Assembly: GCF_054482595.1 (NCBI RefSeq)
Contig: NZ_CM137008.1
Reading direction: 5' to 3' (one strand)
Length of the DNA: 64,000 bases
Positions 12,001-15,000 of the stretch are shown here, piece after piece. The number at the start of each line of letters is the position of its first letter. Within the stretch, counting starts at the first letter, position 1. The position numbers are program-made.

Positions 12001-15000
12001 GGAACTGGACGCTGGAGCGCAACATCGGCTTCCGGTAATGCCTTATACCAGGCGTGGCTTAATACATGCAATTCGGGGTTGTTATGCGTGGCGGCATTGA
12101 CCAGCGGCAACCACTCATCACCAGTGATAATGGCAGCGGGCTGGCAACTTGCCAGTAAACCCTGCAGTTTGGCGCTCCAGGAATCCCGCTGACCGACGCC
12201 CATTGGAATCGCCAACGGGACGGCGACTAAGCCGGCATACTGGCAGGAAAAAAAAGCCTCTACGAACCCGCTACTGGTTTCGGCAATCAGTGCCACGCGA
12301 TCGCCTTTTTTCAGGTTCAGCGATAACAACCGCTTCGCACCAGCTTCGGCACGCGCTTTTAACGTCTGATATTCCAGTTGATCTTCAAGTTGGCAACGTC
12401 TGTCATAAAAATTCATTCCAGCGCTACTCAGAGCGGCGTAGTCCAAAGCATCAACCAGCGTTGGAAAATCGGCATAGCGCATAGGTAGGGAATGCGTAAA
12501 GATTTTATTAGACATATACACCACGAAAAAATTGGATATCAAAAATAAAATGACAATAATGCGGTGGATTATATAGGTATAAAAGATAAATGAGATAGTA
12601 TTTTCATTGGTGTGATATTGAACATTGATTAAAATAATGCTTTAAATCTTAACTCTGTTTATTGTGAATAATATTTAATTTATGAATATATTAAGATAAT
12701 GCCCTGGTGGGTCGCATTAAATCCACAATAGTCATGTTGATCGGCTAACGGTGGCGCTGGTGTATCGTAATTATTCATAAATATTATTTTATTTTTCCTT
12801 ATATTCATTGCGTGGATAGTTAAGGTACCGTCCGTTGCTGTTTATTTTCAGCATTAATTATTTGTTATCCACTAAGCTATGGAACGCGATCTGCTGATGA
12901 TTAAAATTGAAAAAGTAATAAATAAAAACGACTTAAAGGCATTTATCGCTTTTCCGTCATTACTTTATCCCGACGATCCAAACTGGATACCCCCTTTATT
13001 CATTGAACGCAACGAGCATTTGTCTGCGAAAAATCCGGGGACGGACCATATCATCTGGCAGGCGTGGGTGGCAAAAAAAGCGGGGCAGATAGTTGGGCGT
13101 ATTACCGCGCAAATAGATACCTTGCACCGCGAGCGTTACGGCAAAGATACCGGTCATTTCGGCATGATTGACGCCATTGATGATCCGCAGGTTTTTGCCG
13201 CGTTGTTTGGCGCAGCGGAAGCGTGGTTGAAGTCACAAGGTGCAAGTAAGATCAGCGGTCCTTTCAGCCTGAATATCAATCAGGAAAGCGGATTACTGAT
13301 TGAAGGTTTCGATACACCACCCTGTGCGATGATGCCGCACGGTAAACCGTGGTATGCCGCGCATATTGAACAATTGGGTTATCACAAAGGCATTGATTTA
13401 CTGGCGTGGTGGATGCAGCGAACCGATCTCACTTTCTCTCCGGCGCTAAAAAAACTGATGGATCAGGTGCGCAAAAAGGTGACCATTCGCTGCATCAATC
13501 GCCAGCGGTTTGCCGAAGAGATGCAGATCCTGCGTGAGATTTTCAACTCTGGCTGGCAGCACAACTGGGGATTTGTGCCGTTTACCGAACATGAATTCGC
13601 GACCATGGGCGACCAACTTAAATATCTGGTGCCGGACGATATGATCTACATCGCTGAGATTGATTCTGCACCCTGCGCGTTTATTGTCGGCTTGCCGAAC
13701 ATCAACGAGGCGATTGCCGATCTGAACGGATCGCTCTTTCCCTTCGGCTGGGCAAAATTGCTGTGGCGTTTGAAAGTCAGCGGTGTGCGAACTGCGCGAG
13801 TACCGCTGATGGGCGTGCGCGACGAGTATCAGTTCAGCCGCATCGGCCCGGTGATTGCGCTGTTATTGATTGAAGCCTTACGCGATCCGTTTGCCCGCCG
13901 GAAGATCGATGCGCTGGAGATGTCATGGATCCTCGAAACCAATACAGGCATGAATAACATGCTGGAACGCATTGGGGCGGAGCCGTACAAGCGTTACCGA
14001 TTGTATGAAAAGCAGATTTAATACCAGCTAACTCAGGTTCATCTCCAGCGGCACCGCCGAGCGAATCAAATGGTGGCCTTCCAGCTCGATATCGTGGAGA
14101 TTCTTTTTCACGGTCCGCACATGATCGCGTGCTGCGCGCTGGGCGACGTGCGGCAGCCGCTGCAACACCGCGTTGTAGATCCGCGCATGCTGGCGATCGA
14201 TCTGCTTTTTTTGCTGTGGTCGATGGTAGAGATTATTTACGCTGGCAAACACTGAATTAAACATCAGGTCGGTCAATGATTGCAGCGTAAACACCAGCAC
14301 CTGATTGTGAGAAGCCTGACAAATGGCGAGATGGAAAGCGTGATCCAACTGCGCATGTTCGATCAGCGAAATCTCTTTGTTGTTCTCACTGGCGGCGAGC
14401 ATTTTTTCATAACAGCGGGTTATCACAACAAAATCAGCCTGCGTTCCCAGCGTTGCCGCAAGCCTTGCCGATTCGCCCTCCAGTAATGCGCGAACGTCGA
14501 GCAGATCGTACAGCGTTCGCGGCTGCGTACTGAACAGATGGATCAGCGGGCTGGTGTCCTGCACCCGATTAAGCCGTGCGACACGAGAATCGCGACCCTG
14601 CGCCGTTTCAATAATCCCGCGCCCGCGCAGCACGGTCAGCCCTTCACGCAGTGCGGAGCGTGAGAAGCCGAGCTTTTCACACAGTCGACGTTCCGAGGGA
14701 AGCGGCTGACCGACCTTCAGTACGCCGTCGATAATTAACCGTTCGATACTCTCTGCAACCACTTCGCAAATAGGGCGACGTTCATCTTTCATTCCCGGAC
14801 CTCGTGCACAGGTAGGACCAATTTTTCTGTACTTAACTCGCAAAACACGCACATCACGTAAGTGATTATGTTACATCAATTTAACATTGAGTTAACCAAG
14901 ACAAGGTCACAGAGCTGGAAAAAAAATGGTCTGACCGGTAGCTAAAGAGATAGACGAAAACGAAAAGCCCGCTTAATAACTGTTCACAGAAGCAGCGCGC

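What the first reader, a model, noticed from the sequence alone, without database searches (positions are those of the whole stretch)
12879..14792. Nearly abutting convergent 3' ends of yghO and glcC
The yghO stop (14019-14021) and glcC stop (14028-14030) are separated by only about 6 bp with no room for a terminator on either side. Transcription of one gene must read into the other, so there is potential antisense interference between the lipid locus and the glycolate regulator.
Basis: seen in the sequence. Interest (0 to 1): 0.25.

Follow-up and report, generated by a model that had tools for sequence, protein, structure and literature searches.

The report
Tail-to-tail yghO and glcC genes
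Two E. coli genes that point at each other end only 6 bases apart, so their messages must run into one another; this is real but ordinary, has already been catalogued, and has no shown regulatory effect.

Summary
yghO (12879-14021, +) and glcC (14028-14792, -) have stop codons separated by 6 bp (TACCAG). RefSeq annotates the same gap in this strain (E. coli XH990) and in K-12.

No hairpin terminator fits in the spacer. The neighbouring convergent pairs keep 34-47 bp spacers filled by strong hairpins. In 34 convergent pairs sampled from 230 kb of this genome, 3 have gaps of 6 bp or less and none has 7-33 bp.

The inference that the transcripts overlap is already published. glcC-yghO is one of 165 convergent "excludons" found by RNA-seq in MG1655 (ExcludonFinder, NAR 2025). 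K-12 is identical to the window across the junction.

Antisense interference remains untested. The adjacency exists only in Escherichia. The spacer is polymorphic: 187 of 5426 E. coli genomes carry a 76-138 bp spacer holding a dispersed-repeat insert, and the last 1-5 residues after GlcC's shared Met differ between haplotypes. This looks like an island boundary, not an evolved device.

Likely 3' ends:
- yghO: a weak hairpin plus U7 inside glcC (14175-14212).
- glcC: Rho-dependent termination inside yghO.

In passing: yghO is the tandem-GNAT acyltransferase of a sphingolipid (spt) island.

Verdict: already known, low interest.

The parts
12879..14021 (+). yghO CDS as RefSeq calls it (380 aa). 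It encodes a tandem-GNAT N-acyltransferase. The true start is probably Met7 at 12897.
   Evidence: The ORF and the RefSeq annotation agree. There is no Pfam or NCBIfam hit at E<=0.01. Homologues are named N-acetyltransferase/GNAT and are mostly 374 aa. M7 is invariant in a 16-sequence alignment. An AlphaFold model (pLDDT 75.9) matches tandem-GNAT structures at Foldseek E 2.5e-15.
14022..14027 (.). The 6-bp spacer TACCAG between the two stop codons.
   Evidence: Read directly from the sequence. Three diverged haplotypes (TACCAG, CGCCAG, TGGCAG) all keep the length at 6. A 76-138 bp spacer occurs in a minority of genomes.
14028..14792 (-). glcC CDS (254 aa), the GntR/FCD-family regulator of the glycolate operon.
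   Evidence: Annotated in RefSeq. It matches the NCBIfam GlcC equivalog at 510 bits and the Pfam GntR and FCD domains. The mechanical ORF list runs on to a GTG at 14852, but the annotated ATG at 14792 fits the family model.
14175..14212 (+). Candidate weak intrinsic terminator for yghO read-through. It is an imperfect hairpin (14175-14205) followed by T7 (14206-14212), lying antisense within the glcC codons for QQKKQIDRQHARIY.
   Evidence: The hairpin alone has dG -11.0, and -13.4 in its 56-nt context. It is the most stable hairpin preceding any of the 16 T>=7 runs in the 64-kb window. The region folds no better than shuffles (z -0.01). The U-tract is broken in E. whittamii and shortened to T6 in one E. 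coli lineage. It is a candidate only.
13742..13832 (-). C-rich, G-poor stretch on the glcC read-through RNA, antisense to yghO. It is a candidate Rho utilisation region about 200-285 nt past the glcC stop.
   Evidence: C/G is 1.76-1.81 in 78-nt windows, at or above the 95th percentile of the window. C/G is 1.5 in the first 78 nt after the stop, 14027-13950. No hairpin+U candidate with a stable hairpin appears before 13454, about 570 nt downstream; the only earlier lenient-scan hits are weak long-range folds with poor T tails. Composition is the only evidence.
12483..12878 (.). Divergent control region between yghO and the FAAL-reductase-ACP-spt operon. It is the presumed source of native yghO transcription.
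   Evidence: Gene layout is from the annotation. The layout is conserved in 38 of the 42 loci examined. In K-12 this region and the first 14 yghO codons are replaced by IS5, with the breakpoint at window 12921 (PMC11677980).
14793..15042 (.). glcC-glcD divergent control region, the source of glcC transcription.
   Evidence: Annotation. The role of GlcC at this region comes from established knowledge of the glc locus and was not tested here.

Best explanation
This is an incidental tail-to-tail junction. The last gene of a horizontally distributed sphingolipid (spt) island, yghO, abuts the 3' end of the core glycolate regulator gene glcC.

Shown:
- The stop codons are 6 bp apart and no terminator hairpin exists in or around the spacer.
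- The same junction sequence in K-12 gives overlapping RNA-seq coverage in published data.
- The adjacency is restricted to Escherichia.
- The spacer is an indel hot spot with lengths of 6, 76, 77 or 138 bp. The GlcC tail after its shared Met is rewritten in each haplotype.

Inferred:
- Each mRNA carries a 3' UTR antisense to the partner's 3' coding region.
- yghO transcripts end partly at a weak hairpin-U7 about 190 nt inside glcC, and otherwise by Rho further in.
- glcC transcripts, once ribosomes leave at the stop codon, are ended by Rho within a few hundred nt inside yghO, followed by 3' trimming.
- Both genes are thought to be weakly transcribed (general knowledge, not measured here). RNA polymerase collisions and RNase III cleavage of the duplex are then possible but probably have little effect on either gene's output.
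For: - Geometry and annotation.
- No terminator at the junction, and flanks that fold like shuffles (z about 0). By contrast the two neighbouring convergent spacers, pitB/yghT at 47 bp and lptG-like/spt at 34 bp, hold hairpins with z -3.2 to -5.7 that no shuffle out of 200 matched.
- Published overlap: glcC-yghO is in Table 1 of ExcludonFinder (PMC12288877). The other two abutting pairs in my sample, cueR-ybbJ and uspC-otsA, are in the same table.
- K-12 is identical to the window over 13650-14267.
- Candidate termination signals.
- Lineage restriction: glcC follows yghO only in the 4 Escherichia loci of the 42 examined. Elsewhere the downstream neighbours and distances vary, and several loci have a strong hairpin+T soon after yghO.
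- Polymorphism: 187 of 5426 genomes carry the long spacer. The insert belongs to a dispersed repeat family with a median of 16 places per genome.
Against: - No 3'-end map for this pair was found. It is absent from the held Term-seq and p19 dsRNA supplements, and other supplements are not held.
- The K-12 evidence comes from a strain whose yghO promoter and first 14 codons were replaced by IS5, so yghO transcription in the intact locus may differ.
- The hairpin-U7 is not statistically distinguishable from background folding and is not conserved in every lineage.
- The C/G composition is only mildly enriched.
- The 6-bp length persists across three diverged haplotypes. This could reflect constraint rather than accident.
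- Expression levels were not measured.
Confidence: 0.6

Rival explanations
1. Functional excludon. The overlap is a selected device that makes expression of the sphingolipid acyltransferase gene yghO and the glycolate regulator gene glcC mutually exclusive, through RNA polymerase collision and RNase III cleavage of the 3' duplex.
For: - The pair is listed as an excludon from RNA-seq.
- That paper reports that excludon pairs in general have expression ratios consistent with mutual exclusion and higher synteny.
- The 6-bp spacing is retained in three diverged E. coli haplotypes even though the spacer, both stop codons and the GlcC tail differ.
Against: - The adjacency exists only in Escherichia. 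In the 38 non-Escherichia loci yghO has other neighbours.
- 187 of 5426 E. coli genomes and two cryptic Escherichia lineages tolerate a 76-138 bp spacer.
- K-12 tolerates IS5 disruption of yghO.
- There is no functional link between the two products, and no dsRNA signal in the held p19 tables.
Confidence: 0.12
2. There is no meaningful overlap in the native strain. One or both genes are nearly silent, or 3'-exonuclease trimming brings the stable 3' ends back to about the stop codons. The K-12 excludon call would then reflect IS5-driven or spurious yghO transcription and a coverage threshold applied to low-count genes.
For: - K-12 yghO lacks its native promoter and first 14 codons.
- ExcludonFinder defines transcript ends by a 50%-of-gene-coverage rule, which is fragile at low depth.
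- The pair is absent from the held Term-seq and p19 tables.
Against: - RNA polymerase cannot terminate within 6 bp without a signal, so nascent overlap is unavoidable whenever either gene is transcribed. No such signal exists in the last 100 nt of either gene or in the spacer.
- The pair passed the criterion of presence in at least 50% of 58 samples.
Confidence: 0.2
3. Annotation artefact. One ORF end is mis-called and the real genes are further apart.
For: - The yghO start is probably mis-called by 6 codons, which shows the annotation is not perfect.
- The last 1-5 residues after GlcC's shared Met vary between haplotypes.
Against: - The YghO C-terminus is conserved to its last residues in 16 homologues and ends identically in ten Escherichia sequences.
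- GlcC aligns to position 253 of 256 of its equivalog model.
- Both stops are the first in-frame stops.
Confidence: 0.02

Closest known systems
Convergent excludons, meaning overlapping 3' UTRs of convergent genes (ExcludonFinder map of E. coli MG1655, NAR 2025, PMC12288877)
   Same: The orientation is convergent and there is no intergenic terminator. Overlapping RNA-seq coverage has been reported, and this very pair (glcC-yghO) is in the published list of 165.
   Different: Reciprocal expression, RNase III dependence and any phenotype are undemonstrated for this pair. The mean intergenic distance of listed excludons is 95 nt, against 6 bp here.
Other abutting convergent pairs in the same genome: otsA/uspC (6 bp) and ybbJ/cueR (0 bp)
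   Same: They have the same tail-to-tail geometry, with no space for a hairpin. Both are also listed as excludons.
   Different: Those pairs were not examined here for conservation or polymorphism. yghO/glcC lies at an accessory-island boundary and has length-polymorphic alleles.
Compact bidirectional intrinsic terminators between convergent genes, as in SEnd-seq work and programmed RNAP collisions (Wang et al., bioRxiv 10.1101/2022.10.23.513370)
   Same: Both involve convergent genes and the possibility of head-on RNA polymerase encounters.
   Different: That mechanism needs a stem-loop between the gene boundaries. Such hairpins fill the 34-47 bp spacers of the neighbouring pairs in this window, but none exists here.
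Rho-dependent termination of untranslated or antisense RNA in E. coli
   Same: The RNA downstream of each stop codon is untranslated antisense RNA. On the glcC read-through strand a C>G stretch lies 200-285 nt downstream.
   Different: Only composition was examined. There is no bicyclomycin or 3'-end evidence for this site.

Membership tests
Convergent excludon | Adjacent genes on opposite strands in convergent orientation | tested here: met
   yghO is on the + strand and ends at 14021. glcC is on the - strand and ends at 14028.
Convergent excludon | The transcripts of the two genes overlap | not testable with these tools
   Reported from RNA-seq in MG1655 in at least 50% of 58 samples (PMC12288877). 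The junction sequence is identical in the window. No RNA data exist for this strain.
Convergent excludon | Expression of one gene lowers expression of the other, or the duplex is processed by RNase III | not testable with these tools
   No data for this pair. It is absent from the held p19 dsRNA supplementary tables.
Bidirectional intrinsic terminator between convergent genes | A G+C-rich hairpin in the spacer, flanked by an A-tract and a U-tract | tested here: not met
   The spacer is 6 bp. No terminator-like site lies at the junction. The flanks fold like shuffles (z about 0), whereas the neighbouring spacers give z -3.2 to -5.7.
Intrinsic terminator embedded in the partner gene | A stable hairpin immediately followed by a U-tract downstream of the stop codon | tested here: inconclusive
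   On the + strand the hairpin at 14175-14205 (dG -11.0) plus T7 is the best such site among the 16 T>=7 runs in the window. Its context z is -0.01 and the U-tract is not conserved in E. whittamii. On the - strand there is no hairpin+U candidate with a stable hairpin before 13454, about 570 nt downstream.
Rho-dependent terminator | A C-rich, G-poor, untranslated RNA stretch of about 80 nt, and sensitivity to bicyclomycin | tested here: inconclusive
   C/G is 1.5 right after the glcC stop and 1.76-1.81 at 13832-13742, at or above the 95th percentile. On the yghO read-through strand C/G is only 1.5-1.6, from about 400 nt downstream. Bicyclomycin sensitivity is not testable here.
GlcC (GntR/FCD regulator of the glc operon) | Match to the NCBIfam equivalog above its cutoff, and a position divergent from glcDEFGBA | tested here: met
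   NF007442 scores 510 bits against a cutoff of 301, and the Pfam GntR and FCD domains match. The divergent glcD-A operon is annotated.
Bacterial ceramide synthase (CerS, e.g. Caulobacter CC_1154) as the identity of YghO | An N-acyltransferase encoded with spt, acpR, aasR and cerR. Sequence homology to CC_1154 and ceramide-forming activity would also be needed. | tested here: inconclusive
   Linkage to FAAL (aasR-like), epimerase/dehydratase (cerR-like), ACP and spt holds in 38 of the 42 loci examined. The fold is tandem GNAT. The five-gene set is defined in PMC11324152. No direct comparison with CC_1154 was possible, and activity was not tested.

The most novel reading that the evidence does not exclude
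The 6-bp junction could be a working excludon that couples the accessory sphingolipid island to central glycolate/glyoxylate regulation. When the island's acyltransferase gene yghO is transcribed, its read-through antisense RNA would lower GlcC, or glcC read-through would lower yghO. The natural 76-138 bp spacer alleles carrying a dispersed-repeat insert, present in about 3% of E. coli, would then act as insulators that uncouple the two genes.
Probability: 0.1. Interest if true: 0.4.

Novelty: already known. Interest (0 to 1): 0.12.

Why it matters
It matters little as it stands. The gap is visible in every annotated E. coli genome, and the pair is already in a published genome-wide list of overlapping convergent transcripts.

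Its modest value is as a convenient natural test case for whether such overlaps have any consequence:
- E. coli populations carry 6-bp, 76-bp and 138-bp alleles of the same junction.
- K-12 carries a version in which one partner has lost its promoter to IS5.

The neighbouring sphingolipid island is biologically more interesting than the junction itself.

Tried and rejected
- Consensus terminator scans at the junction found nothing.
- A lenient hairpin+T scan of both read-through strands gave one plausible site for yghO and no hairpin+U candidate with a stable hairpin for glcC before 13454, about 570 nt downstream.
- Folding of the flanks against shuffles showed no excess structure.
- Rfam, searched at E<=1 over 12400-15100, gave only a chance plant miRNA hit at E 0.7.
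- I looked for direct 3'-end or dsRNA evidence in supplements. Adams 2021 Term-seq and Huang 2020 p19 have no glcC or yghO entry. Supplements for ExcludonFinder, Dar & Sorek 2018, Sy 2020 and Conway 2014 are not held.
- Pfam and NCBIfam gave no family for YghO, and a PDB sequence search gave nothing significant. The fold was needed to place it.
- The afdb50 fold library was unavailable.
- I tested whether the 76-bp insert is a structured terminator-like element. Its fold energy is no better than shuffles (z -0.64 and +0.40) and it has no U-tract, so I did not call it a terminator.
- I considered naming the insert a Box C repeat from memory. That was not verified, so it is described only as a dispersed repeat.
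- I rejected annotation error as an explanation.

Full report
**Observation.**
The window is E. coli, 100% identical to strain XH990 over the region tested. The sequence reads ...AAG CAG ATT TAA | TACCAG | CTA ACT CAG GTT CAT... The yghO ORF (12879-14021, +) ends with TAA at 14019-14021. The glcC ORF (-) ends with TAG, written CTA on the + strand, at 14028-14030. Exactly 6 bp lie between them. RefSeq annotates the same two CDSs with the same gap in XH990 and in K-12 MG1655.

GlcC is securely identified. It scores 510 bits against the NCBIfam equivalog (cutoff 301), aligned to model position 253 of 256, and matches the Pfam GntR and FCD domains. The YghO C-terminus LYEKQI* is invariant in ten Escherichia sequences and conserved to its last residues in 16 homologues.

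**How unusual is it?**
I read all convergent pairs from 230 kb of the XH990 annotation in five stretches. The 34 gaps are 0, 6, 6, 34, 34, 35, 36, 37, 37, 39, 39, 41, 42, 45, 47, 47, 49, 57, 58, 61, 62, 67, 68, 78, 121, 122, 138, 148, 164, 190, 205, 227, 271 and 820 bp. The median is 53.

The distribution falls into two groups. Most pairs keep at least 34 bp, enough for one hairpin. Three pairs abut: ybbJ/cueR (0), otsA/uspC (6) and yghO/glcC (6). None has 7-33 bp. So this pair sits at the extreme, but it belongs to a class that makes up several per cent of convergent pairs.

The contrast inside this window is clear:
- The two neighbouring convergent spacers, pitB/yghT (47 bp) and lptG-like/spt (34 bp), are filled by hairpins with z-scores of -3.2 to -5.7. 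None of 200 shuffles folded as well.
- The sequence on either side of the yghO/glcC junction folds exactly like shuffled sequence, with z -0.03 to +0.38.
- No terminator-like site is found at the junction.

**What is already known.**
A full-text search found that this exact pair is listed as 'glcC-yghO' in Table 1 of ExcludonFinder (Sanmartin et al., NAR 2025, PMC12288877). It is one of 165 convergent gene pairs whose RNA-seq-defined transcripts overlap in at least 50% of 58 MG1655 transcriptomes. The other two abutting pairs in my sample, cueR-ybbJ and uspC-otsA, are in the same table.

K-12 is identical to the window from 13650 to 14267, so that evidence bears on the same junction sequence. 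There is one caveat. In K-12 an IS5 element replaces the native yghO promoter and the first 14 codons, with the breakpoint at window 12921 (PMC11677980). yghO transcription there is therefore not native.

I found no base-resolution 3'-end or dsRNA evidence. The pair is absent from the held supplements of Adams et al. 2021 and Huang et al. 2020. Other relevant supplements are not held.

**Where do the transcripts probably end?**
This section is inference.

- **yghO read-through (+ strand, antisense to glcC).** An imperfect hairpin at 14175-14205 is followed directly by T7 at 14206-14212. The hairpin has dG -11.0 alone and -13.4 in context. Of the 16 runs of seven or more T in the 64-kb window, this one has by far the most stable preceding hairpin; the next best is -6.3. 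It would not terminate glcC mRNA, which carries A7 before the hairpin rather than U7 after it.
- **Weaknesses of that site.** Its context is not more structured than shuffles (z -0.01). The T-run consists of glcC Lys codons. In E. whittamii the run is broken by synonymous changes, although the basal G-C pair there changes to A-U by a double substitution. I treat the site as a weak candidate.
- **Further along the + strand.** The first C>G stretches (C/G 1.5-1.6) begin about 400 nt in.
- **glcC read-through (- strand, antisense to yghO).** No hairpin+U candidate with a stable hairpin appears before 13454, about 570 nt downstream; the only earlier hits of the lenient scan are weak long-range folds with poor T tails. 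C/G is 1.5 in the first 78 nt and 1.76-1.81 at 13832-13742, at or above the 95th percentile of the window. This fits Rho-dependent termination of untranslated antisense RNA, which is an established general mechanism in E. coli.

**Evolutionary context.**
A scan of one genome per species with YghO returned 44 loci, of which 42 could be examined.

- In 38 of the 42 loci examined, yghO lies divergent from a fatty-acyl-AMP ligase / NAD-dependent epimerase-dehydratase / ACP / serine palmitoyltransferase operon. This holds across Enterobacterales and in Pseudomonas. In the other four loci the held upstream flank is short (L010, L015), only the ligase is held (L012, L017), or the copy is a second, unlinked one (L030).
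- glcC follows yghO only in the four Escherichia loci.
- Elsewhere the downstream neighbour and distance vary, and several species have a strong hairpin+T soon after yghO.

The junction is therefore the lineage-specific right-hand boundary of an accessory island.

It is also polymorphic:
- Three diverged E. coli haplotypes keep 6 bp but differ in spacer, stop codons and GlcC tail: TAA-TACCAG-CTA (..MNLS*), TAA-CGCCAG-CTA (..MNQN*) and TGA-TGGCAG-TCA (..MKQG*).
- Escherichia sp. E1V33, E. whittamii and 187 of 5426 complete E. coli genomes have a 76-138 bp spacer. In these the GlcC tail is again different..MNKVGM*..MNKEGM*..MNKGGM* or ..MK*.
- The insert is a G+C-rich dispersed repeat, found at a median of 16 places per genome in 5407 of 5426 genomes. 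It is absent from this window. It has no U-tract and folds no better than shuffles.

An arrangement that is confined to one genus, length-variable within the species, and survives IS5 disruption of one partner in K-12 argues against a selected regulatory device. The persistence of exactly 6 bp in three haplotypes is the one observation pointing the other way.

**Verdict on the interpretation.**
The structural inference is sound and published: there is no room for a terminator, so the transcripts must overlap. The proposed 'antisense interference between the lipid locus and the glycolate regulator' is untested, and the comparative data make it unlikely to be important. My probabilities are:
- about 0.6 for an incidental overlap with termination inside the partner gene;
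- about 0.2 for negligible stable overlap in the native strain;
- about 0.12 for a functional excludon;
- about 0.02 for annotation error.

**Side result.**
The 'lipid locus' is a sphingolipid island. Its genes match the Caulobacter five-gene ceramide set aasR, cerR, acpR, spt and cerS, and it also carries LptF2/LptG2-like transporter genes (PMC11324152; bioRxiv 10.64898/2026.04.12.717747, which draws the E. coli UTI89 locus).

YghO has no Pfam or NCBIfam family. Its model (pLDDT 75.9) is a tandem-GNAT fold, with Foldseek E 2.5e-15 to tandem GNAT N-acetyltransferases. Together with its near-universal linkage to spt, this makes it the candidate ceramide synthase of the island. That is an inference from synteny and fold. 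It was not tested against CC_1154.

**Novelty and score.**
Already known: the gap is annotated everywhere and the overlap is catalogued. Interest is low (0.12). The natural 6-bp, 76-bp and 138-bp alleles would make a tidy test system if anyone wished to ask whether such overlaps matter.

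Noticed in passing
window 3474-14021 (yghQ ... 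lptF/lptG-like 6250-8396, spt 8431-9603, ACP 9603-9851, epimerase/dehydratase 9883-10797, fatty acyl-AMP ligase 10794-12482, yghO 12879-14021): This is a complete sphingolipid-type island. It has spt, a dedicated ACP, an acyl-ACP-synthetase-like ligase, a CerR-like reductase, the tandem-GNAT acyltransferase YghO (candidate CerS) and LptF2/G2-like permeases. K-12 has lost most of it to IS5. The core is syntenic in 38 of the 42 Enterobacterales and Pseudomonas loci examined. The E. coli UTI89 version is drawn in a 2026 preprint, but I found no report of the lipid product in E. coli.
   Followed up: partly
junction 14022-14027; L003 7144-7219, L005 7144-7220, L048 355-430, L049 355-492: The junction is an insertion and deletion hot spot. 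A dispersed G+C-rich repeat (core ...GGGGCGGTCCCCTCGCCCCTCGGGGAGAGGGTTAGGGTGAGGGGG...) makes the spacer 76-77 bp in two cryptic Escherichia lineages and 76-138 bp in 187 of 5426 E. coli genomes. One allele (138 bp) also duplicates the last bases of yghO. The repeat family has a median of 16 places per genome. It resembles the Box C repeat from memory, but that was not verified.
   Followed up: partly
window 14028-14042 (GlcC C-terminus): The last 1-5 residues after GlcC's shared Met differ between junction haplotypes (..MNLS, ..MNQN, ..MKQG, ..MNKVGM, ..MNKEGM, ..MNKGGM, ..MK), while the rest of the protein is about 99% conserved. The stop codon is supplied by whatever sequence lies at the junction.
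   Followed up: yes
window 12879-12899: The yghO start is probably mis-annotated. Met7 (ATG at 12897) is invariant in 16 homologues and most homologues are 374 aa, so the RefSeq 380-aa start at 12879 is likely 6 codons too early.
   Followed up: partly
XH990 chromosome, five stretches totalling 230 kb (L001, L050, L051, L054, L055): Convergent intergenic distances fall into two groups. Of 34 pairs, 31 have gaps of at least 34 bp and 3 have gaps of 6 bp or less (ybbJ/cueR 0, otsA/uspC 6, yghO/glcC 6). None has 7-33 bp. All three abutting pairs are in the published excludon list.
   Followed up: yes
window 1019-1049 and 8394-8428: Strong hairpins fill the pitB/yghT (47 bp) and lptG-like/spt (34 bp) convergent spacers, with dG -19 to -28 and z -3.2 to -5.7 on both strands. 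These are typical compact bidirectional terminator candidates.
   Followed up: yes
window 14175 and 14205 (E. whittamii L005): The basal G-C pair of the candidate hairpin changes to A-U in E. whittamii through two synonymous substitutions. The same lineage breaks the U7 tract (TTTCTTC). This is a single event, so it is anecdotal.
   Followed up: no
L047 (E. coli Ec-RL2-1X, NZ_CP066839.1) 9269-10407: In this strain an IS1 element truncates yghO after about 50 codons and joins it to a gspM fragment. The whole glc operon and most of the gsp cluster are deleted. Overall, 877 of 5426 genomes gave no match to the yghO-glcC query.
   Followed up: partly
L046 (Macrococcus sp. DPC7161, 430-bp contig, coverage 0.81): This contig encodes a protein fragment 99% identical to residues 6-148 of E. 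coli YghO, inside a Gram-positive assembly. It is almost certainly a low-coverage contaminant contig.
   Followed up: no
L007 and L030 (Shimwellia pseudoproteus DSM 3038): There are two yghO paralogues in one genome. One (84% identity) sits with the spt cluster. The other (74%) has none of the cluster genes within 6 kb.
   Followed up: no
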